Part shown: piece by piece, positions 3,541-56,200 of the stretch
Layout of the letters: every line of letters begins with the position of its first letter
Position numbering within the stretch: the first letter of the stretch is position 1
Made by a program: the position numbers and the translations under genes
Assembly: GCA_002633005.1 (NCBI GenBank)
Contig: NMRA01000490.1
Span: forward strand, 262,475-326,474
Reading direction: 5' to 3'
Length of the DNA: 64,000 nucleotides
Origin: Phoronis australis
Taxonomy: Eukaryota; Animalia; Phoronida
Notes under the pieces: generated by a model
The model's database searches: none
What the model was told of the DNA's origin: nothing
The model's input: only the letters and a program-made list of their open reading frames with translations

Positions 3541-3558
3541 ATGGCGGAAGATAAACAG
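3541..3558 (+). CDS. Candidate alternative first coding exon (MAEDKQ)
   Basis: gcaATGG start, phase-0 donor CAG|GTAAAA followed by T-rich intron-like sequence. Short, so chance occurrence is possible. Confidence 0.4.
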
Positions 3559-6500
3559 GTAAAACTCGTTGTTTTTTGTCGGATTTTATTTTTTTTCATT
3601 CAACCATCCTTCTATTTTAACGATTTATACGAGTCTGGGGCAACTGTAGTAAATTTAGTTCCATGTGATGCTCTTGGTATTTTTAGGAGCATTTCTGTCA
3701 AGGGATTTGTTTTTCATGTTGGGAAGGGCACAAACTTAGCATTATTTTAGTTCATTCTATCGTTGTATCATTCGTTCTCCCGACTAAGTAGTTGTTTCCA
3801 ACAAGTAGCGCGATGACGACCTTTTGTTCTGGCGAATACACCCGTCTCATTGCTACTTTGGTTATGCGTTTGGCTCAGGAGCCCCAAGTTGGGTAACAAC
3901 TTTCGAATGACTCTATTGCAAATGTGTTTGTGTCTGTCGCGGGTTTTTTGTCAAACTCACTTTGAGTAAACTATTTTTCATTGTCAGAATTTTGGTTGTA
4001 TGTTCTAGCTAAGAGCAAGAGCGCCAGCGAAACAGTCACTTAGTGAACGCGACCTCTAGAGTTGATTACCTTAACACTCTCGGGCACTAACAGCATCCAT
4101 CTTGAGAAGATAATGACCACGAGGGGGAGAAGTTATCGGGCTGTTCCAAACCCTGGACAACTTTTACTCTCCTTCGTCTCTGTTCAAGTCATTCGGTCTT
4201 ACAAAAAAAACTTCCGTTTGGTTCAACTCCAGACATCAGTGAGCGGTTTCCAACGTGAGGCTAAATCCAGATACCAATCTAGTCCATTGTTTAGGACTTT
4301 TGTGCTGCATTAGGGCTCGCAGGCCAATTGTACACCGTGCATCAAAGATACTAAAACTTAACAAAAACCTAGGGAATCAGTTGACTATTTTTGTTGTATT
4401 TTTTCTGATATGAAATTATTCTGACCATTCACGAGGAATTCAATTTCAGAAGCCAAACAGTTTGAAAACTCACCACAGCAGTCCATGGTATATCAATTTA
4501 TTTTAGATACTGTTTTATTGCCGTGAATCATCGCTAATGCGTTAATTGCTTTGCTTAACACAATATTCCAACTACACTGACCCATCACTTCAGTGGTCGC
4601 CATAGGTTACGTTAGTAAGATCTCAAGCATACTCACGAAACACTCGCCTTTCACTCGCGTGATTTTGCCTGGTCTTGCGTGATCTAGCTTTTCTTGCGAG
4701 AAACGTGGTCTACAAAACGCTAGCCAGCTTGTCATAGCTAATCAGCCCAGTTCGTGATTTTTCATTTTTATACTGTTAGTAGGCATTCAATCTCTAACTT
4801 CGGACTCCGTCTGGCGATCGTAACTTCTTTGTAGAATTACGATCACGACTAGCGTTTTGCGGTAGATATTTTATGTCACGTGTTTGGAAACCTCAACTTC
4901 AAATTGAAAATGGTGACTTGAAAGTTCGTTACACGAGTTCACGTAGAGAGGACAAATAAAAATGGTATACGCTGGGAGGCAAAATTGACTCTTAATTCTT
5001 ACATGAAGGTGTACGTCCGTTTGTTATCGACGTGGGATGTCGAGGCAATGGATTTGGTCTTGTAAACTGAGACGAAATGTCTCGCTATTCATTAGCGTTC
5101 TTCAAAACTGAAATTCGACTTTATGCCCTTTCAAATGTAAATGTCAGAATGTTATTTGGATTATTCACAACGTAATACTTATCCGTTTTTTCACTCCTAT
5201 GTATTCTTTTAATGTTGAGATTTGCAATTATGTGCAGTCAGCTAGGGGGTGGTATTGAATAAAAATGGTTAACATGCATAGTACGATCATTTCAATAACA
5301 TATTCACGCTTAACTGAGCAGTGTGTATGATGCAGGAACCCTCATATTTACTAAGCATAATGTAAATGTTTTGTCTGTTAGACAATGAATCGTGGGCGCA
5401 TTTGGAGAATAATGCAGGAAAGATCGGGATTTGACCATATTAGGCGTTACGACCGTTTCACGGCCAAGTAAATGAAAACTTGCATAATAACGGTCATGCA
5501 GTAAAATTTCATCCCATATCAAATAAGTTTGAGAACGCTCTTGAGTTAGGAAATAGCCCGCATGTATACACGTTCATACAGTGTATAAGTAAACTGCGAG
5601 AGAGGATAGACATTGTTATACGTTGTCGAACATTTGTTCTCTCTGAGTACATTTAGTTGTTTCATTAAATGGATGCAGTCGATGAAAAAACTAGGCATGT
5701 CCTTTAGCTGTGAATCTACATTGTTTTCTTCGAACCTTTTCTGCAGAGATTTTTGTTGCCAATTCCCAATGAACCAATTCGTTTCAGTCTAGAGGTCAAC
5801 AAATATTTTGTTTGACGAGTCAATAGCACGTAGCATGCATCACAAGCTTGTTCACTTACGCGGAATAGATTATTCCGATAATCTTGCACTCGGCCGTGTC
5901 TTGGCTACGCATTCACCACCAAGAGGCTTTGGTTCGCGCGTCCGTGCCGTTTACAAACCTCCAGTTTTAGAGCGGATTACCTATCGCGAAATAAATGAGA
6001 TCAATTTTCTTTAATATCAGAACCCCTGATCGCCATCTGGTGTGCTTTTCGGATTGTTGAATTATTGAAAATTTTAATTATCCAGTGTTTAATTCCAGAC
6101 TTGTAAGCTAAATGTTTTATGTCGACGTTCTTTAGTATGTTCAACCGCTTATTCAGGGTGGTTCCCTTCTTGAACGCTAGATGGCGGGGCAGCTTTCTGT
6201 GCAGGCAGGAAAACTCTTGCGTCGCAAGCCAACCGTAGGGTGTGTTATCTTTCTGATATCCAGCCACAGTTATCTCTACTTGTAACCATATACAGTTTTC
6301 TCAAATGAAAAAACATGGCATTATTTTGCAGTACCAGGCGTCAAAAGCAATGCCAAGTGATTATTTCTGCTTTTGATAGCTCGGCTTCAATTCTTCACCT
6401 GCGTCGCTGGTAACCGCGGGTACCAAACTACCTGAGGATTTCAGAATAAGGGACATCCGGTCCCAGAAATCATGCAAATTATTAATATACGCACCCGTAT

Positions 6501-7893: not shown

Positions 7894-8239
7894 GAGACTT
7901 TCAAAGGAAACGTACGGATAGGCTCTGACGTCAACAGATTTTTGAGCTATGCACACTTCTCCAGAAATCTTCATGGCTACTAGTCAGATCTCTGGTGAGG
8001 CTTTCTCCTAACTTCGGAGTATCACGAAACCTGCGCTAACTTTTACAGCCATCTATTCTTTGAACATAGCAATACAAATTAACAGTAATATCAGTATAGG
8101 TACATAAACCACATTCGTACACCATTTACCCGGTGTAGGTGCCCTCAGGTATTGAGTGAGTGTAAAGTTTACTGTGCTCTGATTACGTTAGAGCCTATCC
8201 GTACTTTTTCTGCATTAAAACGGATAAGCTGAAAGTCTA
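7894..8239. mobile_element. MITE-like non-autonomous DNA transposon
   Basis: Inverted ends agactttca ... tgaaagtct with subterminal inverted gtacggataggctctgacgt / acgttagagcctatccgtac; flanked by TTA and TAA. Confidence 0.65.
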
Positions 8240-10637: not shown

Positions 10638-10670
10638 ATGGGTCAAAGAATATTACAGCCTAAATACACT
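10638..10670 (+). CDS. Candidate alternative first coding exon (MGQRILQPKYT)
   Basis: gtaATGG start after a GC/CpG-rich leader (about 10290-10640), phase-0 donor ACT|GTAAGT at 10671. Confidence 0.4.
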
Positions 10671-11599: not shown

Positions 11600-11743
11600 G
11601 TTAACCCGCCTCCACCTGTTAACCCGTCTCCACCCGTTAGCCCGCCTCCACCCGTTAACCCGCCTACACCCGTTAACCCGCCTAGACCCGTTAACCCGCC
11701 TACACCCGTTAACTCGCTTACACCCGTTAACCCGCCTACACCC
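11600..11743. repeat. 18-bp minisatellite (gttaacccgcctacaccc), about 8 copies
   Basis: Direct tandem units are visible; they explain the repetitive ORF 11540..11746. Confidence 0.95.
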
Positions 11744-11936
11744 CAAAAGCCACTTTTGATTTAGACCACTTACCGCTATGAAATTTGTCTTAAATTATGT
11801 CTAATGTCAACTTGGAAAATGATATCAGGCTTTGAAAAATGTGCTTGTTATTGTTTGAGATCAGGTTCTACATGGTGACCTGTCACAGCAGTGCCAACTG
11901 GAGCGCTGAGGATTGTAATAACGAACTGTCAGACAC

Positions 11937-12197: not shown

Positions 12198-14588
12198 AGA
12201 ACCATTCGACTGACAGCCATATTGCATTGAGCGCACAAATGGATTGTGTTTGAGGTTCTTCTGTTCTTCCTAGTCCTAGACATTATCTCTAAACTTGAGG
12301 TCTGGCACATGCTGATCTCAAACTTAAAGCCGTAAATGGCCCAATTTAACTTAGGATACTTTACTGCTAAAGTATTACGAATTGACTCTCGTAACGATGT
12401 CCAATGTTAGCCGATAGGAAGTGCATTTCCGTATCCAACCAATTAGGTGCTATAGTTTATTCTACTGTTTCCGGTCAAGTTGATTAAGTGTTTTCATGCC
12501 AACTGTCCTATGTGTGCAGGTGCGATGTTATGGTCGCTATAGTAACATTTTGAATCTCGGAACTCAAAGTGAGACGTTAATCGATCTTTTCACTAGTTGC
12601 GTAAACCTTTTCTTTTAAAAATATTCAGCTACCGAAGAGTGTATCGAAGGGCAGATGAGCTCTGCAACGTAGTCACAATGGAATTTGAATTTATCAAACT
12701 GAGCGGACTGCTTCAGTATAATTTCTGAAAAGAAAATTTTGCCTAATTGCTCTTCTATGCAGAACTGCTCTGTCAGTGTTTCGTTAATAAACAGACATCG
12801 TGTAGTGCTACGAGTTTTTCAATATTCACCAAGTTAATATCACGTGTCAATGTCACGTGTCAATGAAGATGTTTAGGACTGCCTTCATGATATCAAGGTA
12901 ATTGTTTTGTAATTTGATACTATACCCATCCATCCTTATCTTGTTTAATTTGAAATATTGGCCGTGCATGGACATCTATTTTCACCCTCTTAACAAAATT
13001 TTCCAGTTTCTCTCCGCTTAGGTAACTATGACAATTTTTTAACCACGTTGACGTTGATTGAGATCGACTTGCACCGTAATAGTACCACACTGGTATGTAT
13101 TTATTACTCGTGAGGAAAGGACGGCTGTACTATGCAGTTAACTCAATTGGTAAATTTACCATTCAGCCTGACGAGAAGTACCTCGGTGAATTCACGGAAT
13201 CAAATACTGGGCAGGTTTTATACTCGATTAAGCCTTGGTGATGAGATTAGTAATGACAGCTCTCACAGAAATATGTAATGTCTAACAGTGAGCGCCGCTG
13301 AGCAACATTGAGCATGGACCATTTCAAAGTAGCATAAAATAAGAATGGATCGGTTTGCTGAGCCACAGACAGCATCTACATGTACAAGGTTTATTCTGAC
13401 CGCAGTATTCATGAAAGACAAGTGTTAACTTGTCTTGTTTCACAACTCGATTTTTGTGACTCGCGAAATTAAGGCGGCCATTAATCCAGCTTCCACCACA
13501 AAAATATTTAGACTTGTTACCGTAATAAAAATGGCTTCAAATTACGTCACTGATTTGTGGGCTTTGGAAGCCAAGACTGCCGGTTCATCATTGGTTGAAA
13601 TGCGAAGTTCACGTGCATCAACGTGTCATTTCATTCTACAAAATCTAACGAAGTGTTAGGTTTTTGCAAGACCAAAAAGCCATTCTTATCTAAATCAGAA
13701 ACAACTTCTCTCAGTTAAAACTTAGCTTCCTCAACGCAAAAAAAGGTTTATAGCCGTTTTAAATCAAACCAGTTGACACTCAAAATTGAGTGAAACGGAA
13801 TTTTCCAAAATCGAAACAGTGCTCAAGATACCTTTAGCTATAATTGCCTTTTGCTTCTGACACTTTCAAAATTCTTCATGTTACGTGCAAAAGGAAAACG
13901 GAAGCGAAGTTAAAGTACGTGTACAACCGCACAATTTAGGTATTAAACGTTGGTACCACACTTTTCAACATATGTCGACGGAAATTATCTTCAGGGAGAT
14001 GAAAACGAACGTTTTGGAAGTAAGATGAGATGTGTCACAATGAGCTGTAATTACGAATGATTCCTTAGAAATTCTCTTGTTGTAAGAGAAGACAACAGAC
14101 TATTACTATTCATTAAAGGGAAATCGTCGGCGAAAAAAATGATTTTCTGTGATCAGGCCTCAGCGCGGAACCGGAACTTGCAACCCTCGCTGTCGCATTA
14201 CATTTCAAAACTCCGCTTACAGAGTGAGTCCGACTCGAGAAATGACAGCGTATTTTAAGAGAATTTAACTAGTAATGTCTCTGGCCATTATGTCATTGAA
14301 TGATTGAAAGACTAGTTTGAGAACTGGCGATTTGTAATGAAATCACAAAAACGAAACATATTTTGTTGTTGTACGGCTCTGATCAATGCTAATGACTTCA
14401 AGAAGTCTTTATCATCCAACAATTATCTAAAAAAATGCGTTTTACGGTAGTAAAATGGATTGTGTCCCTTAAGTATGCCAGTGTTGGATTTTGACCATTT
14501 ATTGTGTCCTTTTGATTAAACATTGTCTATCGGCTTTTAAAATACTTCACCTCTGACCTCCGTTTGAACCTTCTCCCGTCTAGCTCAG

Positions 14589-14739
14589 CCTCCCGTTCAG
14601 TAACGCTAGGACCTCGCTAAAAAGCAAGACTTCACGAGATTACGTGAGATATTACCGTGTATTTTAAATAAGAACGCGTGACTTTGACTAGGTTTTAGCT
14701 AGGTCCTAGCGTAGGTCCTAGCGTCTACTGAACGCACGC
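14589..14739. mobile_element. About 150-bp MITE present only in copy 1 of the duplicate
   Basis: Copy 2 has the empty site tagctcaggtcaat; copy 1 reads tagctcag[insert]caggtcaat. Inverted arms cgttcagtaacgctaggacct / aggtcctagcgtctactgaacg. Confidence 0.85.
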
Positions 14740-15538
14740 CAGGTCAATGCCACAAAAATATGAAATAATAGAAAGGAAATAGTTTATTTTCGACACTTGT
14801 AAGAAACAAAAATCATGCGTCACAAGCTCGTATCCTGGGATCCAACTACAAGTCTAGCATAATAAATGGCGTTCGCCATTACGGATTTTACTGGACCTCG
14901 GTGTGACGTCAGGTTTTCAACCTGTTGTGTTTATTCGATAATCTTTACAGATCTATTGCAGGCGTTGCATTATTTTAAACAGTGGAATTGTTTGTGTTCA
15001 CTGCGATGTCAAGTAAGCGATGAATTGCTTATGAGTACAGAGTTCAAGAATGAAGTCGAATACAATTGTAAAACGTGGGTTTTGTAGCTTAGTTGTTAGT
15101 CTGCACTTGTGCTCAAAACATTGATTACGGTAGATCTGTTCGGCTCCGTTAAAAGGGGTTGGCCACTGAGACGAATGAATGTCCGTGCATGAAAGCCTCG
15201 GCGAATGAAAAGCTGACCAACGCTTGAAATTAGAAGCATTGCTGGACTTCCGCGTTTCTGTGTAGGGCCTATATCGATACCGAAGTCCCGAAGACGAGTT
15301 AAAGACATTTATATGGAGACTCAGGTTAGATTATCTTTTCGAATTGTTCNGCACTTTCAAAATTCTTCATGTTACGGGCAAAAGGAAAACGGAAGCGAAG
15401 TTAAAGTACGTGTACAACCGCACAATTTAGGTATTAAACGTCGGTACCACACTTTTCAACATATGTCGACGGAAATCATCTTCAGGGAGATGAAAACGAA
15501 CGTTTTGGAAGTAGGATGAGATGTGTCACAATGAGTTG

Positions 15539-15775
15539 CAGAGGCGGATCTACAGGGGGGGTTCAGGGGGTTTAAACCCCCCCCTCGGGACAGGATCAAA
15601 AATAAAAACTGGAAAAAAAATCGCCAGAAAAACGAAATTAGCTACTAAAAATCCCAAAAAATCTTACACGGGAGGAGGGAAACCCTCTCGCGACCTTCCT
15701 TCTCCTCGGCGCTACGCGCCTCGGATTCTTTCGAATCCTAAACCCCCCCTTACTGAAATCGTAGATCTGCCACTG
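15539..15775. mobile_element. 237-bp hAT-like MITE with 5-bp TSD, present only in copy 2
   Basis: TIRs cagaggcggatctac / gtagatctgccactg (13 of 15 match), AGTTG duplicated on both sides (15534-15538, 15776-15780), empty site tgagctgtaatt in copy 1. Confidence 0.92.
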
Positions 15776-21700: not shown

Positions 21701-23034
21701 GCAAGTTATCGACTTCATGGAACTTGCTCAAAGAGCTTCGTTTCGTAGTGAGCAACTGGAATGGTAACTTTTTCGAAGATTTTCGTGCACTTGTCTCACC
21801 TCATTGAGGAAAGGAAATTTGACCGAGTCCTCTGACTGCGATTGTTTTGATTTCAAGTTAACCTCCTTCATTACCGAACAGTCACTGCGACCATGACGGC
21901 GACATCTCGTGCAGTAACTCCTGGTGCAAATTATAGGTAATTGAAATAGTAGAACTCGAATAATACGCTTACGTTTTATGCCACCTATAAATTGCTTAGC
22001 TGCTGACACTGAGTGACACCCCCAAATGAGGAGAAGGCCGTAGTTTGGAGAGGGCCTGCCGCACATGGTTCATGGAGAAACACGGGTACAAACGCTTCCT
22101 TTAATCGAAAACTGGCCCGTAGATTGCCGTTCATGCTGCAAAGAGGATTAACACATTCCGCAGCTGGTCCAGTGTTTATTTTCGATCATCGAAATTGTAC
22201 AGTTTCCACTTGTCATGGGTCCACGTACAGACTGTAACAATACGTGAAGACATCTCCAACTCGGACTCTGAGGTACTGCGATGAATAATAAGCAGGTCTG
22301 ATCGAAGTGTTGACTCTCACCGGACGTTAAAGGTTATTGCAGTGTGGCTATCTTCCTTCTGTACTATCCTGCTTGTCTTCATACCTTCAAGACCATTTCA
22401 ATCACTAAGCGGCTTCATCGGTTGAAATAGTGCATTTCGGGAACGTCTTCCATATACTTTCCGTCAGGTGTCGTGGTTGTTGACGTCTTCCAAGTGGTGG
22501 TAGGCCTACTGTTTCCTTCGTTTAGGCTTACACCTTCTATTGAAAGGATTTTCACAGAGTTATTACTTTCGGAAAGCCAATTTGAACAAGCCATTTTTAG
22601 AAAGTTAATGGGATGTATTTCTTGTCATTCACTGAATTTATCCAAGTCTTCCGAAGAGTGCTTTTGAGGTATTATAGTGATTGTGACGAACAGGAGAGAA
22701 ACATCAAAAAGCTAGAATCACATCTGTGATAAGTTAAACAACTTCTGACACGCAGTGACAACAGATAGCCAAGATTTTCATGCCGCGTTTACTGTATATT
22801 ATGCACTTCGCCAAGTAAGAGTGATTAATTGTCTTCTGCAATTATTAAACTGTCCGTTAGTTCTCGAGAGGCTTCGCTGAGCAAAGCCTTATTTCAATTA
22901 CGTGTTAATCTTCATTGTTGACCTCCATGAATATAGGCAGTCAAGAGACACGATACTAATCTCTTGATTTATGAGTTAAATATCGTACAATAATTGTTAT
23001 ACAACACGACGTGGAGTAATTTCTAAGGTTTAAC

Positions 23035-23223
23035 ATGGCTGCCGGAGTTGCTGCGAATCTCGCCAACAATATTAACAGGCACGACTCGCCCATGATGGGC
23101 AGCCGCGACAGCAAGACACTGTCAAAGCAAGTTTCGGTGCTTGTGGAAGGGAAGAAAATCAAAGTCTCCGATCCCGTGCTCCTTCGAACCAAAACAGTTG
23201 ACGACACTTTCCGTCGCATGGAG
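23035..23223 (+). CDS. Candidate first coding exon (63 aa: [63 protein letters not shown])
   Basis: aacATGG start, GC/CpG-rich coding-like composition, strong phase-0 donor GAG|GTAAGC at 23224, compatible with the phase-0 acceptor at 54655. Confidence 0.75.
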
Positions 23224-26200: not shown

Positions 26201-29200
26201 CGATATTTCGCCGCGATTATGAGTTCTTACTTGTAGACAGTGATTTTTGAGAAAGCTCTTAACCTCTTTTGAAAAAACTTCCGACTGTCTTGCCGAGTTC
26301 AGGCTAAAGTCGGATAATGTTCGCACTGGAATAGGTAGTGCAATAACCCCCCGCGCTGCTTTCTCAATCAGAAAATAATTATGCCAAGCTACCCGTATTA
26401 TTTGGATTAATAACGATTTCTTGGCTGGTGAAGAATTGACAATTCTGTATTTCTTCGAACCAAGCTCATTAATTTTCTGGAATCATTAACTTCCTAACAA
26501 CTTGTGTGTGTTATGGTGGTCAAGCCAGTCTCGCCATCTGGTGACTTGCACAGGTTGATGTCAGCCTCCGAATCGGTACGAGTCCGCCAGAAGTCGTAAA
26601 TTATGCAACTAGTTTCAATTCTAGGTAATAACGAGAACACAGTGGCATTTGGAACTACAAGCCAATGTGAGATTCATGCACTTGTTACTATCGTATATGC
26701 GCATTTTAAACCCATAAACTGCACCAAGTCCTATTTTCGGAATGACGTAACCTCCAATTAGGAATTTTGTGTCATCTTGTTCTATAGCGAGTGTTTCTGG
26801 CTTCCTGGTACCAGTTAAACCAAAAAACAACTGAGGCAAAAGAGGTGCTGTCGCTTACAACGGGCTGGGGATTGCCGTCGCGAACGCGACAAATGTCCAC
26901 GTCTTCAAACAGAATTACTGGGACTTTGTGCGTGGTTCGTTACTGTGGACCTCAGCTCATTACTATTTCACTCTATTTTATTTTATTTATTTAACAAATT
27001 TTACTAATTTTAAACTAATTCACTTTATTAGCTTTTCGATCTAATTGTACATAGCTGTCTGTATTTTATTTCATGTAATTATTTCTGACTGGTCCCACTT
27101 GAAAATTAGTGTATACACTGAAGGGGTCTTTTAAAGAAGTTTAAATAAATAAATAAATACTCAGTTTAGGGATAACCGCCTTCTCTTAGGCGCATGCACC
27201 TATACATCACTTGAGTATAAAGTACATTAAAAATTTGCAACACACGTGGGAGTGGCGGGTATACAAATAGACGAGAAAAGACTATTTGTTTATAAAATTC
27301 CTGTGAATCATAACTTAAATTATAACCTTATTTGTGTTTAGGAAATGAAAATAGGAATTTCTTAAAAACGAAATTAACACTCCGACAGGTGAGGTTAGCG
27401 GCTGTTGACAATAGTTTCGTCTTAGGCTATATTTAGTATTGAAGACAAACAATAGGTAGCGCAGTAAGCATTGCACTAAGCATTGATTTATTAAACTAGC
27501 ATGTTAACGATAGTTTTTGCGAATATTCGGCCTATTTGTTTTTTGTGTTTGCTTCTGTTAAAAATCTATAAGCAGAGTAAATTAGATGTCATATGTTTAG
27601 TTTTGTTCGCATCGACTGTGCGAAATTTTAGAAGTCAGAATGAGTACTTAGTTCTTATTGGATAATGATAACGAGTCTCGCCATAAATGGAGTGTGATAC
27701 CAAAAAGCTGACCGATGTGTGATCTGGATGTTGTTTTGTGAAACATTTTGGTATGCCATGTGCTAGTTTGTTTGAAGCAATCTTTGGACTGCGACATGGC
27801 TTCAGACAAGGACGATTTAGAAAGTCGCGAAGGGTCTGAATCGACAGTAAGTTTTAGCAGGCGTATATGTTGCCTGCAACCAACCATGCGCATGTCTCAT
27901 TCATTAGTTGCCCGTTTCTGTATCGCATCGGGACTAAGCATTTTGATTTTGATTTTGCCCGCTCATCACATCAACACTGTATGCGCAAAATTTCGTTAGG
28001 CGAATTGCCAGTTTTGAGTCTTGGTCAATTTGTAACTTTGTAGACGTAGTCGGGCTACAGACTCGATTTATTCGATCTCCCACCAGCAGTTTTGCTATAG
28101 ACTGTAGGCAACTTATTGCCTGTAGGGCGTTTTAATCTAATCAAAGAGTTTTGATTTGTTTTTGATGTGTCTAGCTCACTTAGTGTTGATTTAAGGATCA
28201 ACCTCTTGATCAAATTATTTCTTTTCCAATTAATTTGCCATTGCAGGCTTATAATATGGCTGACAATGTTGATATACTTGTTTTATCATTTCATTCTATT
28301 CCATTATTTCTTTGAGAGAAAATGAACTTAATTTAACTTTTGATGAAGCGAACTCATTTTTAGAAACCAAACAGTTAAAATATCACGAAGCTCAGTCTAC
28401 GACATTGCAATTAATTTCTGTAAGTGTGTTATTGGTACAGTCACCCCTTATGTTCAAAGCTGCCAGTCGCTCAACACAGAAAGAAGTTAGATCAGTGTTG
28501 ACGATAAGCAGAATTGATGACGCCAACAGTTTTTATACAAATCTATTGAAGAAGGTTTGATGAAACTGGCCGAGTACTTAATGTTCAGCTATCATGATCG
28601 GATCTCTGCACAAGTTCAAAAAGATGTCATTAGTAACGGGAATGAAACCCTAAAATAGATTCTGGCCGACTGGTCACCCGTGACATGAATTTTATGAGCT
28701 TAGTCTGAGGAAATAACAAACAGCTTGTCCTTTTCAAGCCCAAAAGTCACTTTTTTGGACTCGGGAGCAATTTGAGACTAATTTCATAACGGCAAGTGGT
28801 CTAAACAAAACATGATTTTTTGACAGCTAAATACACAAGCTTAATGCCAGTTTAGTGCTGGTTTTAGAAATAGAAATTTTGTAAAACACAATCCACCCCA
28901 TTTTCACTTGGCAATTTGTGAACGTGGTCAATGAGGTTAAACTTTTTATTTCTTGTGGGAAGGTACGGGATGTGCTACTGTGACTAATAATTTATACACC
29001 GTCAATCCTATCAGGAATGCCAGGTGGGAAAGATTAAGGTCTTACCAGCTGTACACCTGAACTGTTTCTTTTTATGTTGATATCACATGCAATATGGTTT
29101 AACTCATCAATAATAAAGTCATTTGTAGAAAGTTCAAATGCAATTGGACTGTTGTTGTGATTTACTTGTGGATTAAATGCATTTGGTAGAAATTCTGAGC

Positions 29201-44200: not shown

Positions 44201-47200
44201 GCCCCTGTCTGGTCCTGGAGGTGTGCTTCATTACATTGGTCATGGTCTGGTGATCCTAAATGACCTGATGTGACTGTTGACTGTCAAGCTACAGTTTATA
44301 TAAATTCAAGAAAGGGTAAACACCTCCTTGCACATCCATCTGTAACTTTGAAAGTGGTCTTTGTGTTTAACTGGTCAAGAAGGATGATGAACATGAAGGA
44401 TGATGAAGCCAGGTTTCCATTGGTGGCGGACAAAGCCAGCAAAGGTTCATTGGGGCAATGTCTGTGCTGGTTTTGCTTCCATGTAGTACGTAGTCTCGGA
44501 TATTTGATATCTATCTGTTGTCATTAAAAAATTATTGTCGCTGCGTTGTTGGTCAGCTGTATGGGCAGCCATATTCTACACTCCCAGTGTCTTGTGTTGC
44601 TGGGTTTGAAGTTGTGGGATAAGTTGCCACTTATAGTGTGTATAGGACCTTAGTTAAATACGGACATGTCCATGTACCGTAGTTAGCCAAAGATCTGCTA
44701 GACCATGGATTTTAACTTCGTAAAAGTATTTTGCCTTGTAGAAGAAAGCTTGAAGAATTTCAGTTTCAAATTTGTACTAATCTCCCATTATTTGAGTCAC
44801 GTGATCGTGTTTTTTCTTTGAAACGTAGCAAAAAAGAGAGTCACTTTCACAGCTAAACAATTGTAACAATACTGTATTCAAATTGCGTTTCATATAAATG
44901 TTCAAAATGAATTAATCAAAAAGGTTACAGTTTTGTAATTCTTCATTTTGACTTCATTTTATGCATCTTTTGACTATTTTTTGTTAGCGCTTATGCAGAA
45001 GTGGAGCTGTTTAAAACAATCGCTAACAGCATTTTGGAGAATAGTGCATAAAGCATTAACTTTCATATAAATTCTCTCAGAAATTTCTGAATTATGATTT
45101 CCAAATTTTGCCAGATTTAGACTTTTTTCAAGGGTCCTTACATAACCTTAACCGCCAAAGAAAAACCTTTGAGAACTACTTGCAAAGTTAAAGTTACTTT
45201 TTTGTTCTTGCGAGGATTTTCCTTCATTTTATCCTAAAAGTTGCTCAAAATATCTCCTCCTGTAGAGACTTAATTGAAAGTGAAACTCATCCCGCCACCG
45301 GAATATGAGGACAGGTTCTACCAAAAATTGTACACCGTGTCGGCCATCTTGTGCCTATATTTCTTCTTGTTGTCATTTGGTGACTAAATTGTGATGCTAT
45401 CTCCTGTTAAATTCACTAAACATTTTTGCTTGGGCAAAGTTAAGCTCATGGTGTTCAGCCCTGTTTATCCATTTGCTACCTTACATGCAATTTAGTTTGT
45501 AGAATGTGACATTTATGTGTGAGAGTTTTCAAATACAGTTGAAGGAACTTGGTTAAAAGTTCACGACCTGAGAGGTCGTGAACTTTAGTGGATATGTTTG
45601 TTGAAGGTCTTCCTGATGTCTGTTGGTGATGGGCTCTTTGTTGTATGTAGCCCTGCATAAATGTTGTGTACAGCTGGTCCCTCTGTATCCAGATAGGCTT
45701 CATGGAGTGTGGTCAAGTATTTATAAACACAAGTCACTGACCTAGGGATTGTGAACTGGTGATGTTGACCAACCCCATGATTATCATCACAGAATTAGTG
45801 TGAGCTCCAAAACAATCACCTCTCATTGTACAATCAGTGGATCATGCATCACTGGCAAAAATCTCGAATCATGGGTCCAGCGTCCACCGACATGTGACCC
45901 CTCACCCTGTTGGTGATAGTGTTGAAGAGTGCTCTCTCTCATCCACCAATTACATTAAACAAAATTCAAATGAAACATTCAGAGAATTTACTTAATGCAC
46001 TTGTCTCCAAAACTCCATTAGGAATTGTTTTTAAACTGATCTACTTTTGCTATAGAAAGGCTTTCAAAAATATGACTTTAATTTATTTTTGTTATGGAAA
46101 AAATCACAATTTGCATTAAACAAAAACAAAATAATGACTCAGAAAACTGTAACAGTGTTTTTGAGATTTTATCTTGAACATTTCTATCAAACATGCTGTA
46201 CATCTTGCTGTTACTATGTTTCATTTTTGCTAAATTTATCTAAAAAACCTCAATTTGTGACAGATTGGCTTAAAATAAAAATTATTTGCATGCTTTCTGC
46301 CTGCAAAACATACGTTCACTTGTAATTCTACATGCATGGCTGAACGCACTGACTTATAGATGAGCGCCTACATAACCTTCACAGAAGACTGCTCTCATAC
46401 AGGAACTGTTTCAGCTGCAATAAAACCCATGAGATGCTATTTACCTTCAGCTTATCCCTCATTACACATTGTCAGTTGTGTGTATTCAGTCCAGGTGAGA
46501 AAATAGTCCCACGCTATTTTTTGCACCTCAATAGTTGTTTACGTTAGCCGTTTAAATACGCCAACCCTGGTAGTTTATTGGTACATTAAAGGTTTCTCTG
46601 CGCAAACCAGTTTTATTTGATTAGGGCTGGCAAATTTGTGCTGAGATAAAAATCCAGTCTAAGGGTGCACTTACAGTGAAGATCTTTGAAGGCAATAACT
46701 TTTGACAGAGGGACATATATCGCCCAGTGTTCAGTCTTATTAGATTATATGCTCTGTGATTTAAATCAACAACACAGTATATGAATATTTGCATTAATAT
46801 CAGGCAGGTATTTTTAGCCGAGCTGTGTTCAGGTATTCAGTCACCTGTACAGGGGGTTTTGTTGCCTATACTGCTGGCTGTGGTTAGTGTAGACATAATG
46901 TGAATGCTGAGGAGTTAATGTAAATGTCTTTAAAAGCAAACATTTTATGATTTGCAATACTTTGCCCAAAACGATGAATGAAATGAATTTTGACTAATGT
47001 ACTTTCAACGTTTTGTTGTGTAATTACTATAGCGTTACCATGGAGATAGAGCCTTGAGATTGCTGCTTACTTACTTATTATATCTAACAATATCTATTTT
47101 AATATTAAGTGCCCCTATCATGCTTTTGGATATTTACAGTAGCCTAAATACCACAAGAGACTGCTGAAGTATTAATACAACATAAACATGTAACATGAAG

Positions 47201-50200
47201 CCATGCACCATGGAGAGCTAACACTGTGTGGTGGGCTGGAAATTGACTAAAAGATGCAGACACAAGGGAGTTGCCCTCTTGTGACTACATTCATTCATGT
47301 TCTGTTTTCTATTCATTTGTGAGTCTGTGATTAACTTTCATGGTCTCAGATTTCGGTGTTGGGGTTGATTTGTTATTCTTGCTTCGGCCGTGTTGTTTCA
47401 TTGGTTGGTGTGCTTTTGCATTGATTTTGTGTTGAATTCCATTTGCGGTTTCAGCTCTTGAGTTAGCTGTTGTATTCATGAGCTGAGCGTGGACGGTGAG
47501 CGTGGACGGGTCTTTTTCTGGTCTTAAATATGGCATCTTTGTGCTCCCGGCTTTAATGTGTTGGTATCGTATCAGCTCAAAACCAACAGATGGAGCTCAT
47601 CTGGTGAAAGAACTGATTTTCTGGGAAAAATGTTTTTTTTAATTGGAAAAGGCTACCTACCTACCTGAACTTTCGCTAAGGGGTTAAGTTTGGTCACTGT
47701 GTGAGAAGTAAACAGTAGCGCTGTAGGAATATAGGAGGCATGTGTTGTTCAAACAAATGTGCGCCCATATTATCCTGGTGTGCTGATATTGTGGCTCATT
47801 GGCTATGAGGGCTCTGCTTTTCAATTACACTCCGGAAAATGTGGGTAGCAGTTCAATGGAAATCTCTTCTTTAATGCGACTTTAACAAGGTGGTTTGTAA
47901 AGCCCTACAGTATTTACTGACAAGATTTTCAATTCGATTTCCATTCAAAGAGATTCTTACTTTATTGGATTGATTGACTCGGAAATTACCAATCCAGCAG
48001 AAATCTCTGAACTCGTCTGGCTCGAGAGATTCAGTTGTTCATTTCAGGATGTAGCACCATACGATCTGCAGTCAAATTCAGTTTGCGTCCATTGATTACT
48101 CGTGATGGGTTCATCTATCTGCAGGCTCGCATATTCTCCTTGTTCTGTGGTTTGCAGCGGCCCTCGGAGATAATGCTGTTACGTACTTAGCCTTGGATCT
48201 CTTCTAATATCTGATACAGTTGGCATGCAAATTGACTTCTGAGAGCTGCTGGTGATTTATTGTTTCAAGTACGCTGATTTTCCCTGCAACTGTGATGTCT
48301 GCCAATGTGCACCCAACCATCTGTTAACAGCTTGCTTGCCAGCATTCAACAACACTTGATCTGTTGTGAAGAAGGCCAGCCAGATAACATCACTGAGCAA
48401 CCTGAATCCACTCAGGCTTGTCTTGACATTGTCTTCTCCCTCATCTTGTGTTCTTGGTGTCTTCTTGAGAGCCCTGAACATAGATTTTACAAGCTCAACT
48501 TGGAAAGCAAGATGGATACTGGATGTTTCAAGAGACTGAGCAGCTGAGGGCTGGTTGGATATCTCAGAGTTAATGAACTATCTTCTGGCATGTTCTATCA
48601 ATCGCTGGTCTGCTGCCTATGATTGGAGGGCTATTTTTGTATTATTCTTAATGTGTTGCACATTTTTACAGTTCCTTACTAGAAGCAATCATAAAACTGG
48701 AAAATTACTCTTCCGGAGGAAGCGTGTAGTATGTAATTGCGTCACACTGCTACCATTGAATGTGTAGTGGAGTATATATTCTCAATTGTCCGGCACTCGG
48801 CCTTTCTGCTGTGGAAATGATAGTTTGACAGATTACACGGTACTAGTGGTCCCAGTCTGCTTTGCCTGGATAAGTACCCCTCAGGGATAAGTACCGTTCA
48901 GGGATAGTTACCACTTAGGGATTAGTACCTTAGATATCTGCAGGAAGGTGATGGAAATTATTGAAAACTGCATTGTTCACTTATTTTTGAACAAGTAGTA
49001 CGAGAATGTGTTCGTGGTGTGCTTTTGGTGTCAGTTCTAGTAGAGTCTAGTGGAAATTACTGACATTACGCCGAGTGACACATAGCCTCGATACCAGCTC
49101 TGATCTGGCCTCCAATACAAGTTGGTCATCGCGTGAAAATAATCGTCATGGAAACTAGGCATGAGGAAGAGGAAGGGTTTGCCGTCGAGGCACTGAATAT
49201 TCTCCGGCGGCCATCTTACTGGTTTCCCCGTCCCAGTCGTCACCTACAGTATTTCAAACGGGATGTCAATGTCAGAGCAGCTCAGAAAAAGAAGCTGGAA
49301 GCTGAGCAGGTATTCAGTTGATTCACTTTTATAGTAGCTGCTAGCGACCTCTATAGGTCAAGATATACAACATATAGTAGCTGCTACACGTGCTGTGTAC
49401 GCTCGTAGAAAGTAAAGGAATAAGACCTTGAAATGAAAAATAATGATGCGTATTTTAATATGCAAAAGTGTACCTAAAAGTTACAAATTAATGACCCGTA
49501 CAGGCGTATGTGCTCTTCTAAACCTGTTTCATGACCTTGGCCTTTTGTTTGTTTTGAAATTGGTAAGAATAAATAGTGCAGTGTTTGCCCTAGCAGCCAT
49601 ACTGCATTGCGGATTGAAACGTACCCACCCTGACGTTAAACCACTTATGATTGCTGGTTTATTTCTAGAAATAAATTCTCGTGGCGAGACTGGTTATAAG
49701 GATTAGTGACTAATTAAATCAAAGTGCAAGTTCACTTATCCCCTCTTTAAAATTTGTATCGTAAATTTGAAAATCGGCCTTTCCTGTGAACCAAAATGTA
49801 ACTATTCCTTATTCTCACATAAAAGTCAGGTGCTTAAGGCTTACGACCTATCACCTGAGGTGGTACATGTTCTAGTCTACTGTAACATTTCATGACATCA
49901 CTGGCCAATCACTGCATGTGTTCCAAATGTGTCCAAATGAAATGGTTTGATTGGATCACATGATCACATGATCTGTCAACAACTGCTCTGGGGTGAGAGC
50001 CATCACACATTACTTGAGTCTCTGCAAGACATACCAGGCAAGCTCAACTATTCTCGAATAAGGAAGTCTTTGGCATGATAAACAATAATAAAATTTAAGC
50101 AAATTTGAAAACCACTACAGTCCAGTACACACAGATTTCTGTAAAGAAGGTGTAAAAAGTTCATTGTCGTCTGCATGTTTTTGTAATAAAATTGCAGGGT

Positions 50201-53200
50201 GTCAATTTGTATTTATTCAAGCTGTTTCACAATTTTAGTACTAGGTATATGTTATAGTACTGTGTAATAAAAGTTTTTAATTGTGAACTTTTGAGTATCA
50301 GTGAAGTACACTTAGCAGTCTTTTGCTAAGTGTGCCTAAGGCATTAGTCAAGAGTTATTGGTGGAAACTGTCGATTTAGATTTCGAATCCTTTTGGTCGA
50401 GTCCGTTTTGGCAGCCTCCAAAACATGACCAATTAACAACTTTATTTCTCAAGTAATTTTAAGGAACTGAGTAACATTTGGTGGTCAGCGGTCACGCGAT
50501 GCATCTAAAAAAATTGTAAACTAACTTCCTCAGTCTAAGCGTCTTCTCACTTTATTTATAGTTGACTGCTCTCTTCCCTTGTTCATGAAAAGTATGTAAT
50601 TAGTTGGCAGTTACCATATGAAGCAAGGAAATTTTCGTAACCTAGTAACCTGGAGCGCCTTCAGTGAAAAGTCATTCCTCATGAGTGGAGATTTGATAGT
50701 CAATCAAGTGTGTTGGTACAAGGGAAAGTTTGCTCTAGCTAAGTGACATTCCAGTTATTGCCTTGAGAGTTGGCAGCCATCCCTTGTAATTTTAATTAAG
50801 GATGACTTCATTACCACGGGCGATTAATCTTGTGTGTAGTGCACCGGTGTTCTCTGTTAGTATTCTCAGGTATATGTTATGGTTCTTGAACATTCACACC
50901 TGGCCTGCTGAAATGGTGGAATTCCTAGAATTCTTCAACAGTAGCGGGGCTTGTGCTGCGCTGTGAGGACGTGTCCAGGTGTTTTGGTCTGCTTGCTGAC
51001 AATGCATTTTTTGTGGAAAGCGAATGGTGTGTGTTATGAGCAAAATGACTTCTTCATGCATAATTTGGCTGAGGAATATTTGCCCTGTAATGCAAACTGG
51101 TAACGAGTCCTATCCCCGATTGTGTTTGATTTGATTCAGGGAGTTATGGGGGTGAGTATATACATAAAACTCATTGTGGTAACATTAAATGATGAATTTG
51201 TAGTTGAGCCTATAAAATGCTGTGGTTTAGTGGTTAAAACTAAAATAAAGCTCAATATGTTGGGGTTGCCTTGACAACAGTTACAACTGTATTTGACCTC
51301 GTTAAACCATCTAAAATTCGAATTATACTCTTTTGTTGCATAAAATCAGCCAAAACTATTCCTTACCACAGTGCGATTGTATTGGCGTTACGATTAAGAA
51401 GATAGAAACTATCGACTACTCAGTTGACCAACTCTGAAATTGCTTGGTTCTTATGTTCTCGATATTAACTGAAGTGGCAGGGTATGTTATGAGACCGATT
51501 TTATGAGATTAAAAGGCCTAATTCGATTTTCATCTATTAGCCGCCAACAGGATGAAATCCTACTTCAAGACTGATATTTGGTCTTGTATGCAAGGAACAT
51601 ATGGAATGACGGGGTCTTATAGGGGAAATGATGGTGGTCTTATGGTAAACCCTGCTTTTAAGGTGACTGTCTTGAAAACAGTGTATAACATGTTAGGGTT
51701 TATATGTGAGCACCAATGGCAATTCTTTTAATATGTACTGTAAATATCCTTCTATCAGGTGTTGAAAATTTTCTTAACATTTAAAGGTCATATTCATAAA
51801 CGATTAAGTGACACTGTTTGATCACGGTGTCAAAACTGATTAATTTACAGGGATATTTAGATTTGTAATCTAAGTAATTAAAATGAGATAATGTCACTTT
51901 CTTCCGTTGTATTTAGCTGCACACGTTGACGGTCTATAATTACAAATTGCTGTGGTATAAACTAGAAGACTTTCACGTAGAATCTTTGGTTTCTGGTAAC
52001 TCACCAGGTGTTCTGACATGTTGCTCCTGAAAATTTGCGTATTTGTTGAAAGCGACTCAAATATGTCTACATGGCACTTTATTTTGAAAGCGCTTTATGA
52101 TAAAATCTACACATGAAGGCACAATATGGGAGGGACACGAGTGAAATTTTATTCTCTCGTTTTAGCCGTCACGATAAAGTAGTATCATTACTTTTCTTTG
52201 TCCGAGTCCGGTACCATGGCAACCACCAGACATTGTTTTGAAGAATTATATCCATTCTCAACAGTTTTACTAGACCTTGAATCTTTAAAACCGCGCAATT
52301 TTAGCAAATAATGTTTTTGTCGAAAATTAGTGAGATTTTATCGGGCTCTGCTAATAACGAATGTTTATTTGCCATGAAGTTTAGAAATTTTCTTGCACTT
52401 GGGATCTCTCGTGGTCATGGTTTTTCAGTTGCTATGCAACAAGATAGTAAGATAGCTTATATCTGATATCTAGCGGATTAAAAAATCCCCTTCTAATTGC
52501 CTCTTGTGAACTAAACAGAAATTTGATGAAGTCTTCCTTCGATAGTCAGTTAATCAGTTATTTCCAAGTGTTTCTGACGTTCATCAATATCTATATGAGT
52601 TGTGGATGGTGCTCTGTGGAGAGTATGTAATGTAGAGATGTCAGTTCATAACACATATTGATTCCTAGTTGGTAAGGGGATCAATTTAATTATTCTTGCT
52701 AAATATAGCTTGTCTCTTGCTGGGATAGTGTTTACAGCACCAGTTATGCTGATCAGAACTTGTCACATGAGCACCCCACTTATACTACTGACAAATGAAC
52801 AGTTCTCTTTTTTGAGTTATCATATGTCTTCCTTTAACTGGTACCTATAAAGCTGGAAAGGTGGTTCAACGAAAACTAAAAAGCATTCTGCAAAGATTAT
52901 GGATAATAACTTGTTCCATGATACTGAAATACTTGTTGAAACCTTGAGACAGCTTCGCAAATCTATAATTTGGATGTCTTTATTATTTTGAATTGCTTTT
53001 CCTTTCTTTAGTAGTTGCTAAAATATAAAATTTGGACAAAAGCGTGTTTTTCCTTATGAATTGGATAATAAAACCTGTGCCCTAAAAACTTTCTATATTC
53101 CTGGATATATTCTTGTTGGGGAGGAGGGAATTTTCTGTGTTTGTGAAGATAATTATGTTGTTTGCTTCAGCTGGCATGGACTAATACTTAGTGTTTATTG

Positions 53201-56200
53201 CTAGAGCCATAATGTCTGTAGTCATTAAGTAGTTAAAGAGCTGTATCATGTCATGTAGCACTATAAGCATTAGCTGTGTTCTCATGGATTTTGAAATCCC
53301 TGAACTGTGTCTGGGAAAAATTACTGTCAGTGTCTCCAAGTATTCCTACTGACTTCAGAATACTGTTATTTTTCTCACTCTGTTGGCAAGCATTGACATT
53401 ATACTAAGTACTTTCAATTGAGTAAACAAACCATGGTAATTTATTAATGAAATTTCCGGGTTTTTAGTTCACGCAAATAACTGGTAAATCTTCTCCCAGT
53501 GCAATATTTTCCTATTAAAACTTAAGCAAATGTGTAGAGGACAATGGGGAACAGGCAGCTGCGGCTCAATGAGGAGCCACTCCTCAACCAGCCTTCAGAG
53601 CTGTACTCTAGACCTTTGGGTGTCCACCATCTAATGCAATATTCTGAACTAGCCTGTATGTTTCTATCGTCAGCCTGTTCAACAGCTACTGTGTTGTAAA
53701 AACGACCATGTGATCAGTGACCTAATTGTGATAGGTGCACTTAATGTAGCAATCATGTTCATCTTAATTGCCATGTTGAATTCAAAAGGAGAATTACTAC
53801 CAGCACAATTTGTCATTAATGTTGAACTCTACAGTCTTGTGGAGTTATAGATGTCTGGGGGGGGGGCATTACCTTGTAAACCGCAATTGTCTTAACGAAC
53901 TGAGCATCCGTAATTTTACAAAAAAGACACGGAAATTACAAAAAAGACACGGTGGTCATGTGACCAAATTAATGATAGACTGATAAAAAGGTCAAGTTCT
54001 ACAGGCTTCCTACTTTCGGAATTATATACCTTTACCAAGTTGACATCTGTAGTCTGTGTGATATTTTGGTAACTGTACAGACTTGTTGATATGGTTGTCC
54101 CTAACCTTAACAGTTTCTCCTCTGTAATGCATTGCAGTGCAGTGGGGTGAAGTTATACTGAAACCACTCTCCTATTTTTAAGAACAGTCACCTGTAATTA
54201 CCATGTGAGCAGGTGCAGCTCATCACAACCTTCACCCTCATCAAGTCAGTCACACCTGTTTTATATTTATCACTCCGGTGGGGTTCTTAATGGACTTGGT
54301 GTAGATAACTCAAAACATCCATTTCAACTGTCTGTAATATTTCCTGTTCCTGTTGCTGATATATACCTGTTTGGGCCCTCCTGGAACTCTGTTCATTGAG
54401 TAAGGCACTTGCCCCCAAAACGATAATAATAACAATAATGATAATAAATATAAAAAAGAATAATTATAAAAATAATAGTAGCATCAGCAAAGGCAATGTC
54501 ATTGATATGATGAGGATAACAATTGTAGGGATATTAATAATGGTAATAATAATATTAATAATGATGATGACAGTTATAGTTGTGGTAATGAGATTGATTA
54601 TGATGATAATAATGATAATAATAGTAATAACGCATATATTGTTTATGCTTTCAGGAGCTGGTGGGAAGCAATCCTACTGAGAGGAACTGGCGCGGGATCT
54701 GTATCGCTCTAGTCGTCATATTGATTGTATGCGGCCTCATCACTACAGCGGCCATATTGGTCAACCCAAGTAGGTCCTACCTCTCATTATTGTTTGTTTG
54801 TTATGCAACTTCACGCAAGGCAGAGATTTTTGTGTTCTATTTCTGTGTTTGAGGTCTGTGAAAATGCACCTGGCAGTTTCATTGAGAACACCCTGCAGTG
54901 CATGAAATGAGCTTTTTAAAGGGCAATTTAAGAAGCCCACATGTATGCAATTTTAAAAATGACAGCTACCATTTTTAAGAATACATGTCCATGATTATCC
55001 CGGAGTCATTATTCCAGCAGGATATTGTGTTTGCTCCACAGAAGGGAATGGAGAATTAAGATCTGATCTTTTGCTGTGCCCGCCCACGTCAGATTCTATT
55101 GTTCCTATGGTTACTAAATAGTCTCCATGGGAACGGTAATTAACACAAAAAATATCTCCACGGTAACCAAGGATAAGTATTTTTTACTAAACGTCACATC
55201 AAAAACGGTTGCGCTCCCCTGTAATCTAAAGAAAGGCTAATTTTTTTGTAGTGGAACCGTTTGATTCATGTTTTTGAGTGGCTGAACCATGTGTTTTGGT
55301 TCTTCAATACAGAGAGCTATCACTCCTAATTCCCTATGATAACACTGTAGACAGAATGGAGCTCATTGATTGCTTCATCTGGAACATTCACTGCTAATAA
55401 TTTGATTTATTCCAGTTTGGAGTTCAGATGATTTTGGCTTAACCTAATTAGCACTGTTGTGGAGAATCGTTAACAGTACATGTGAGATAGTTCAAGTTGG
55501 TGTTAATTAATTGTTTACAGAGAAGGTGAAAAAATACTATGGAGAAAAGTTTTCGTTTGATGACATATTCCTAGCAAGAGATCTAGAGAAAGTATTTGAC
55601 CCACAGTGGTTTACAGGTACGTGGACTGTGGGGACACCTTTTGGTGAGGACTTGAGCTAGTTTGAGTGCACATTGGCGCTGATTATTCAAAGTTGTTGAT
55701 CAAGTTGTAAAACGAAAATCAATCGAATCATTGACGAAGTTAAATTAATAACTCTTTTGAATTGTAAATGTGGAAGTTATCAAGTCACTCTGTACTAATT
55801 TGTTTTTAATCTTTGAAATGCCCTTAAAGATACATAGTATATTTTTAAGTGGAATAGGCTTTAATCTGAAGGCATTACTTTGTGCTGTCAAACTTAACAT
55901 TGAATAATTTATCCATGTTACTCTAAGATTGTTTCTTTAATCTATCCTGTCGTCCACATGAACTCTCCTGTCAGTGTCACGAGGTGGCGCTATTTTTGTT
56001 GTAATATTTTCTCATGGGCTGTAATTCATTCCATGTTTTTGGCCTAACAAACGTACAAATTAAAGTTCTTGCAAGCACTGTTTTTATTGAATAGAGTGTT
56101 ACTCCCAGGAAAAGAATTGTGTTACACGAGAAAATAAGTACCAGTCGTGAGAGAAGGATCCGTACGCGGATCATGAGGCAGGAAGATTACGTGTCTCTGC

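What the first reader, a model, noticed from the sequence alone, without database searches (positions are those of the whole stretch)
3541..54769. Array of alternative phase-0 first exons feeding one transmembrane exon
Seen: at least five ATG-to-donor segments with good start context end in phase 0, spread over about 46 kb. They are MAEDKQ (3541), MGQRILQPKYT (10638), the 63-aa MAAGVAA exon (23035), [17 protein letters not shown] (27796) and the 54-aa METRHEEEE exon (49148). All could join ELVGSNP at 54655. Established: mammalian DPP6 and DPP10 use alternative first exons spliced at this same position to tune Kv4 gating. Inference: an invertebrate locus with a comparable or larger set of chemically distinct cytosolic tails would show this variable-N-terminus system is ancient or independently expanded. 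None of the tails resembles MNQTA.
Basis: partly seen in the sequence, partly recalled or inferred. Interest (0 to 1): 0.78.

Follow-up and report, generated by a model that had tools for sequence, protein, structure and literature searches.

The report
Alternative first exons of invertebrate DPP6/10
This invertebrate copy of the potassium-channel partner gene DPP6/DPP10 splices at least two different upstream coding exons, and likely three to six, onto one shared membrane-anchor exon, a layout also found in mammals and in public brachiopod, limpet and sea-squirt annotations, so the swappable-tail design is likely ancient rather than special to this animal.

Summary
All five ATG-to-GT segments exist as stated and end in phase 0. 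The exon at 54655 is the DPP6/DPP10 transmembrane exon. The ATG-GT pattern alone is barely above chance. The 23035 exon is supported by homology to a Lingula first exon (2 of 300 shuffles). The 49148 exon looks coding but had no reads; 3541 and 10638 remain unverified. A sharp CpG drop begins just after the 27796 exon, and Lingula shows a similar drop near its acidic first exon. That likely marks the broadly expressed promoter. The layout is not special: public annotation gives 8 tails in Lingula and 11 in Patella, and a tunicate carries a DPP6K-like tail. So the design is likely ancient, with fast exon turnover. Kv4 tuning by these tails is inferred, not shown. Ten paper searches surfaced no description of invertebrate arrays.

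The parts
2982..3074 (+).
   Evidence: Open ATG to GT in phase 0, donor score 1.4, weak start context; resembles Lingula's most upstream tail P0293 (8 of 1000 shuffles, pair picked after the fact); NRF1-like motif at 2841. No RNA test.
3541..3558 (+). Candidate first coding exon MAEDKQ; unverified
   Evidence: Sequence only; no tail homologue (135 of 300 shuffles reach its best score); composition uninformative; no loose-end cluster.
10638..10670 (+). Candidate first coding exon MGQRILQPKYT; unverified
   Evidence: Sequence only; no homologue (289 of 300); composition not coding-like (871 of 1500); not seen in loose ends.
23035..23223 (+). Conserved first coding exon, 63-aa tail with a non-polar start (MAAGVAA) and a juxtamembrane V-D-x-x-F-x-x-M-E end
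   Evidence: Best donor of the set (6.7); global match to Lingula isoform X1 tail P0289, reached by 2 of 300 shuffles over 184 tails and 0 of 300 over Lingula's 8; top of 172 candidates; last 10 residues score 16.0 against four mollusc tails, next best 8.0 of 2063 + and 1631 - stretches (motif chosen after the fact); coding-like (15 of 1500). Not seen in RNA.
27796..27846 (+). Main first coding exon in the sampled RNA; 17-aa acidic tail [17 protein letters not shown]
   Evidence: Loose ends at 54655 equal its last 30 nt in X2 (7 reads) and X3 (4 reads), and part of a mixed X1 cluster.
28000..28200 (.). CpG change-point: likely start of the germline-methylated gene body
   Evidence: Share of C followed by G falls from 0.217 to 0.109; best point 28075, log-likelihood gain 129. 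Lingula L001 drops from 0.168 to 0.046 at 22375, about 1 kb before the ATG of its acidic exon at 23436.
44384..44485 (+). Donor after 44444 (phase 0 for ATG 44400/44403, 15 aa, MMKPG..) and a likely donor after 44485 (phase 0 for ATG 44384, 34 aa with a Cys-rich end)
   Evidence: GT..AG joint 44444>54655, X1, 4 reads, 2 starts; loose end at 54653; sense-only depth 0.62-1.07 in bin 44095-44539 in all 3 raw runs. The second donor is inferred from the mixed consensus.
49148..49309 (+). Candidate first coding exon, 54 aa (METRHEEEE..); plausible but unseen
   Evidence: Coding-like composition (8 of 1500 open random stretches); weak donor (1.07); depth 0-0.16 per strand and no joint; no homologue (238 of 300; no Atlas hit of 0.9 or more).
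54655..54769 (+). Common exon 2: ELVGSNP juxtamembrane segment plus type II transmembrane helix
   Evidence: phmmer E 4.3e-11 to DPP6 chain 7ukg_I; sense-only reads and joint 54769>55521 in 3 of 3 raw runs.
55521..63999 (+). Core exons of the extracellular DPP IV beta-propeller; the gene runs off the window before the hydrolase domain
   Evidence: Ten exons after exon 2 stay open in one frame with AG..GT ends, one GC donor; joints 55616>56345 and 56442>56839 and a loose end into 57451; PF00930 E 4.6e-11.

Best explanation
This is the 5' half of an invertebrate DPP6/DPP10 orthologue in which at least two upstream coding exons, and likely three to six, each likely under its own promoter, splice in phase 0 onto one shared transmembrane exon, so that one ectodomain and membrane anchor would carry different short cytosolic tails that likely tune Kv4/Shal channel gating or trafficking by cell type. 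Shown: gene identity, the shared exon, and splicing from 27846 and 44444 to 54655. Inferred: (1) The acidic 27796 exon is the broadly expressed, germline-active promoter, because CpG depletion starts about 200 bp behind it and Lingula shows a similar drop near its acidic exon. (2) Exons upstream of it lie in CpG-undepleted DNA and are likely tissue-restricted, probably neural, which would explain their absence from shallow bulk RNA. (3) The 23035 exon is an old lophotrochozoan exon whose uncharged Ala/Gly/Val start would act as an N-type pore plug, the job MNQTA does in DPP6a/DPP10a. (4) The multi-promoter layout dates to the bilaterian ancestor, while single exons turn over quickly.
For: Identity; tree among DPP6/10 orthologues in a non-mollusc lophotrochozoan group, SH-aLRT 88, unstarred. 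Splicing. Conservation of the 23035 exon; its order relative to the acidic exon is the same in Lingula (15403 before 23436). CpG boundary in both species. Breadth: distinct tails at the same junction in Lingula 8 of 8 proteins (all 8 map to separate ATG..GT phase-0 exons of L001), Patella vulgata 11 of 11, Tubulanus 4 of 4, Lineus 5 among 7, Styela 4 classes among 8, Artemia 2 of 2 full-length. Styela X3 tail matches fox DPP6K (0 of 2000 shuffles). Function: fly DPP10 binds and modulates Kv4.3 through this region (PMC4873792); mammalian tails set inactivation (PMC3973911, PMC9409431); the Shaker plug is a non-polar, acetyl-Ala-initiated peptide (PMC12460158).
Against: Three of the five listed exons (3541, 10638, 49148) have neither reads nor homologues. 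The 23035 exon was not seen in RNA. The 44.4 kb joint rests on 4 reads with 2 starts in one run, its second donor on a mixed consensus, and the 44444 donor is out of frame for the three upstream ATGs, so it may be splicing noise. Transcription starts were not mapped, so some of these may be second exons behind a non-coding exon. The CpG change lies after the acidic exon here but about 1 kb before its ATG in Lingula, and only two species were tested. The 27796 tail's match to Lingula's acidic tail is not significant (27 of 300). A profile of the mollusc/nemertean MN..DLE tails found no hit in the window and no significant vertebrate tail (best E 0.11). No channel binding or gating was tested.
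Confidence: 0.75

Rival explanations
1. The array is real but selection acts on the promoters. The tails are mostly neutral by-products (each first exon needs an ATG before a type II anchor), and the protein works mainly as an ectopeptidase expressed in different tissues.
For: Most window tails have no detectable homologue among 184 tails. Tails differ even between two nemerteans. Invertebrate orthologues keep a GWS[YH]GG-type catalytic motif (Tubulanus, Branchiostoma, Dreissena, Sinanodonta), and fly DPP10 is an active peptidase (PMC4873792).
Against: Some tail classes keep residue-level motifs across phyla: the V-D-x-x-F-x-x-[FLM]-E end in brachiopod, limpet, scallop, oysters and this window, the MN..DLE class in molluscs and Lineus, and DPP6K-like residues in a tunicate.
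Confidence: 0.2
2. Only two or three of these exons are real (27796, 44.4 kb, probably 23035). The 3541, 10638 and 49148 segments are chance ATG-GT patterns, and the array in this window is smaller than claimed. This can hold together with the best explanation.
For: The minus strand yields about half to all as many candidates. No reads, joints or homologues for these three. 3541 and 10638 are not coding-like.
Against: 49148 is coding-like (8 of 1500, one of 11 tests). Only 18-19% of three runs of unstated tissue was read, at depth about 5-13. Verified Lingula exons include equally short ones (9 and 11 aa).
Confidence: 0.35
3. The arrays in vertebrates, tunicates, amphioxus and lophotrochozoans arose independently from a single-promoter ancestor, because long first introns readily gain new promoters.
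For: No significant tail homology between protostomes and deuterostomes was found. The beetle proteins listed show essentially one tail class.
Against: The phase-0 junction before ELVG is shared in all groups examined. Multiple tails occur in both deuterostomes and protostomes, including Artemia and Ixodes. Some exon classes are shared between phyla within each side.
Confidence: 0.2

Closest known systems
Mammalian DPP6 (a/E, K, L, D, S) and DPP10 (a-d) N-terminal variants
   Same: Alternative first exons encoding the cytosolic tail, joined at the ELVG(S)N junction to a common transmembrane exon and ectodomain (PMC3973911 passages; alignment).
   Different: No MNQTA tail in the window. The RNA-dominant exon is mid-array here, whereas the broadly expressed mammalian variants are closest to exon 2 (PMC3973911). 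The array spans about 50 kb. The catalytic serine state is unknown here.
Lingula anatina 'inactive dipeptidyl peptidase 10' isoforms X1-X8 (XP_013386096.1 and others; locus L001)
   Same: Eight phase-0 first exons in 21 kb; X1 tail homologous to the 23035 exon; an acidic exon downstream of it; a CpG drop near the acidic exon.
   Different: The other seven tails have no significant match in the window; the locus is more compact; core exons share only about 40-60% of residues.
Drosophila DPP10 orthologue (PMC4873792)
   Same: Invertebrate orthologue with a conserved transmembrane region; shown there to bind Kv4.3 and change its gating.
   Different: The paper mentions no N-terminal variants. The insect proteins seen here mostly carry one short acidic tail.
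N-type inactivation plugs (Shaker, PMC12460158; DPP6a/DPP10a MNQTA, PMC9409431)
   Same: The 23035 tail starts Met-Ala followed by uncharged Ala/Gly/Val residues, like the Shaker plug.
   Different: Resemblance in composition only; no block was tested. I recall that vertebrate Kv4.2/4.3 begin with the same seven residues as this tail, but searches did not confirm it.

Membership tests
DPP6/DPP10 (DPLP) family | ELVG..NW[KR]GI juxtamembrane motif and type II transmembrane helix | tested here: met
   E 4.3e-11 to DPP6 over 38 of 38 residues.
DPP6/DPP10 (DPLP) family | Extracellular DPP IV beta-propeller (PF00930) | tested here: met
   Exon 59055-59213, E 4.6e-11, 42.5 bits against cut-off 22; collinear exon matches to Lingula.
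DPP6/DPP10 (DPLP) family | Groups with DPP6/10 orthologues | tested here: met
   Falls inside the protostome set in a 43-row quick tree. No DPP4/FAP outgroup was included, so the test against DPP4 rests.
DPP6/DPP10 N-terminal variant system | Two or more first coding exons spliced to the common transmembrane exon | tested here: met
   Donors 27846 (two runs) and 44444 (one run) join 54655.
DPP6/DPP10 N-terminal variant system | Each variant starts from its own promoter | tested here: inconclusive
   No start clusters at this depth; the CpG boundary fits a promoter at the 27796 exon.
DPP6/DPP10 N-terminal variant system | Binds Kv4 and tails change gating | not testable with these tools
DPP6a/DPP10a exon 1a class | N-terminal MNQTA motif | tested here: not met
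   No candidate starts so; a profile of 12 MN..DLE tails has no window hit below E 2.6. Such an exon could lie upstream of the window.
Mammalian inactive DPLPs | Loss of the catalytic serine | not testable with these tools
   The hydrolase exons lie beyond base 64000 and no genome is held. Several invertebrate orthologues keep the serine motif.

The most novel reading that the evidence does not exclude
The DPP6/10 tail toolkit dates to the bilaterian ancestor, and lophotrochozoans have their own N-type inactivation plug in it. The conserved 23035 exon (MAAGVAA.., homologous to Lingula X1) would block Shal/Kv4 pores like MNQTA but from an unrelated sequence, possibly mimicking the channel's own N-terminus while escaping KChIP capture. 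It would be deployed from unmethylated neural promoters upstream of a methylation-marked housekeeping promoter.
Probability: 0.3. Interest if true: 0.7.

Novelty: new member of a known kind. Interest (0 to 1): 0.42.

Why it matters
The papers read treat DPP6/DPP10 tail variants as a vertebrate toolkit: exon 1a is traced from fish to humans, and exon 1K from teleosts to humans and not found in shark or lamprey (PMC9409431, PMC3366920). This locus, together with public annotation, shows the same splice architecture across bilaterians, with more tails in some invertebrates (8-11) than in either mammalian gene (4-5). It also shows exon classes conserved between phyla and a DPP6K-like tail in a tunicate. 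That gives channel physiologists a natural library of tails to test on Kv4/Shal, for example in molluscan neurons. The window itself is an ordinary example of this layout.

Tried and rejected
No genome is held, so nothing beyond the window could be read. No indexed RNA holder was listed; the raw-read runs came by species label. Contig run X4 gave no coverage of exon 2 and was left out of the second lay. The first lay was crowded by repeat-derived reads (130 loose ends not shown), so the second used a 1067-base stretch. Homologue searches with the 23035 tail found nothing: word search 0 of 53 candidates, Atlas, PDB, Pfam. The 49148 tail gave only Atlas scores under 0.9. Pairwise z-scores were uninformative (several near 4) and were replaced by family-wise shuffles. 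tblastx/blastn of Lingula L001 against the window found only core exons; the upstream chain of short hits is noise. The Patella locus (381 kb) came without DNA, so exon order and the CpG boundary could not be tested in a third species. The careful tree did not finish and the quick tree was used. In one search one of 12 exons was read in the wrong frame, which affects only a rough ranking. Other strong-donor candidates (31620, 46360, 51552) are not coding-like and are not counted. The idea that the 23035 exon belongs to a Kv4 gene was rejected: it is a 63-codon exon matching a Lingula DPP tail, with no Pfam Shal hit. The recalled identity of its first seven residues with vertebrate Kv4 could not be confirmed. 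Earlier-findings look-ups were empty. No complex or fold prediction was run.
Full report
Observation. The five segments are present at the stated coordinates, open, and end in phase 0 before a GT. The exon at 54655-54769 matches the DPP6 transmembrane segment (E 4.3e-11). Ten further exons continue one reading frame, and one exon tested hits PF00930. The ATG-to-donor pattern is weak evidence by itself: 5 candidates on + against 2 on the control strand under strict settings, 11 against 9 and 29 against 16 under looser ones (the donor matrix uses recalled frequencies).

RNA. No indexed RNA holder was listed; three raw-read runs and one contig run of the same species label were offered. About 18-19% of each raw run was read. 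On 43650-56990 the core joints appear in all three raw runs, on one strand only. A GT..AG joint links 44444 to 54655 in X1 (4 reads, 2 starts), and the 49148 exon has depth 0-0.16 per strand and no joint. On 54634-55700 the loose ends before the acceptor equal the last 30 nt of the 27796 exon in X2 (7 reads) and X3 (4 reads). X1 shows the 44444 donor again, plus a mixed 4-read cluster (agreement 0.68) whose letters are all explained, by eye, by the 27846 donor and a donor after 44485. Clusters under 3 reads are not listed and one row was hidden, so rare exons would be missed. The 3541, 10638 and 23035 exons were tested only this way. The 44.4 kb exon was not in the finding. Donor 44485 is in phase 0 for ATG 44384 (34 aa, Cys-rich end) and donor 44444 for ATG 44400 (15 aa); the latter is out of frame for the upstream ATGs and may be noise.

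Placement. A quick tree of 43 rows puts the gene with nemertean, brachiopod and annelid orthologues (SH-aLRT 88, unstarred; highest identity 46%). It is therefore likely a non-mollusc lophotrochozoan with no close relative in the protein collection.

Conservation. Of seven window tails tested against 184 distinct tails from full-length homologues, 23035 stands out. Its best match is Lingula isoform X1, reached by 2 of 300 shuffles family-wise and 0 of 300 within Lingula's eight. 27796 is borderline (7 of 300, to a Patella tail) and the other five are not significant. 23035 also ranks first among 172 ATG-donor candidates. Its last ten residues fit four mollusc tails better than any other of 2063 + and 1631 - stretches (16.0 against 8.0; motif chosen after the fact). 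It and 49148 have coding-like composition (15 and 8 of 1500; 11 candidates tested). In the Lingula locus all eight annotated tails map to separate phase-0 exons between 10001 and 31148, with exon 2 at 31401. The homologue of 23035 lies upstream of an acidic exon, as here.

Promoter hierarchy. CpG frequency halves at 28075 (range 28000-28200), about 200 bp behind the 27846 donor. Lingula shows a sharper drop at 22375, about 1 kb before the ATG of its acidic exon. In invertebrates CpG loss reflects methylation, and housekeeping genes are more methylated (PMC8857923, PMC4378018; only the starts of the abstracts were seen). I infer that the acidic exon carries the broad promoter and that exons upstream are tissue-restricted. 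This fits the RNA but rests on two species, and the offset differs between them.

Breadth. Distinct tails at the same junction: Lingula 8 of 8 proteins read (9 in the cluster), Patella vulgata 11 of 11, Tubulanus 4 of 4, Lineus 5 among 7 (one lacks the segment), Styela 4 classes among 8, Branchiostoma 15 strings among 18 proteins of several species, Artemia 2 of 2 full-length. Beetles show essentially one class. Large clusters were listed only in part (15 of 52, 73, 23 and 18). These are database gene models, which I checked against DNA only for Lingula. The Styela X3 tail aligns with fox DPP6K (0 of 2000 shuffles), keeping the Met and changing to Leu the Val that PMC3973911 names as critical. 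PMC3366920 found exon 1K only from teleosts to humans. A mollusc/nemertean tail class (MN..V..K..DLE) starts like MNQTA, but its profile gave no significant vertebrate tail and no window hit, so protostome-deuterostome exon homology is not shown.

Mechanism. Shown: one transmembrane exon receives at least two coding exons. Inferred from orthologues: the shared segment binds Kv4 (fly, PMC4873792, first quarter of the text read; contact with S1-S2, PMC8566240 passages) and tails alter inactivation (PMC9409431 and PMC3973911 passages). The 23035 tail begins with uncharged Ala/Gly/Val residues like the Shaker plug (PMC12460158 passages); 25 of 127 tail strings of 15 or more residues have such a start. 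I recall that vertebrate Kv4.2/4.3 begin with the same seven residues. No call confirmed this, and the Lingula homologue differs there, so convergence or chance is likely. Rivals are neutral tails on a peptidase (several invertebrate orthologues keep the serine motif), a smaller array than claimed, and independent expansions.

Literature. Ten searches of the held library surfaced no paper describing invertebrate DPP6/10 first-exon arrays; most results were seen only as listings. Subscription papers (Jerng 2009, Nadal 2006, Takimoto 2006) were not read. Figure S1 of PMC3634772, an image of inactivation-domain alignments that I could not see (legend only), may bear on this.

Verdict. A real feature and a new member of a known kind. 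The interest lies in the comparative picture rather than in this window: 0.42.

Noticed in passing
P0156/P0161 (Styela clava isoforms): A tunicate tail ends in a near match to DPP6K (0 of 2000 shuffles), which would push exon 1K back to the tunicate-vertebrate ancestor. Another Styela tail begins MNQETTA, resembling MNQTA; that resemblance was not tested.
   Followed up: partly
P0305, P0313, P0324, P0355, P0387, P0389, P0390, P0169, P0177 and others: A conserved tail class MN[S/A]..V.V..K..[D]LE occurs in gastropods, bivalves, octopus and the nemertean Lineus, duplicated in Haliotis and Mya. It is a candidate invertebrate N-type plug. It was not found in the window or among Lingula's eight tails.
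   Followed up: partly
window 13861-16950: About 1.5 kb duplicated at 96-98% identity on either side of the single N at 15350; likely two haplotypes overlapping at an assembly gap.
   Followed up: no
window 61126-61252: This core exon appears to end at a GC donor, a GC-AG intron; not tested with reads.
   Followed up: no
window 44384-44485: One exon with two donors 41 nt apart, each in phase 0 for a different ATG and frame. The longer tail ends in CLCWFC, a possible palmitoylation site (inference).
   Followed up: partly
window 2841, 10750, 27190, 41503: NRF1-like GCGCATGC motifs (motif recalled) lie within about 100-700 bp of the 2982/3541, 10638 and 27796 exons; the fourth has no known exon near it. 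No chance test was done.
   Followed up: no
window 46320-46764 and 47655-48989: A few RNA reads lie in the intron, some on the antisense strand; not explained.
   Followed up: no
L001 1-7971: In Lingula an IMD/WH2 gene lies head-to-head about 2 kb upstream of the first DPP exon. No counterpart was found in the window, and CpG stays undepleted to base 1, so the array may extend upstream.
   Followed up: partly
GCA_932274485.2: The Patella vulgata gene with 11 tails spans 381 kb, about eleven times the Lingula gene (35 kb).
   Followed up: no
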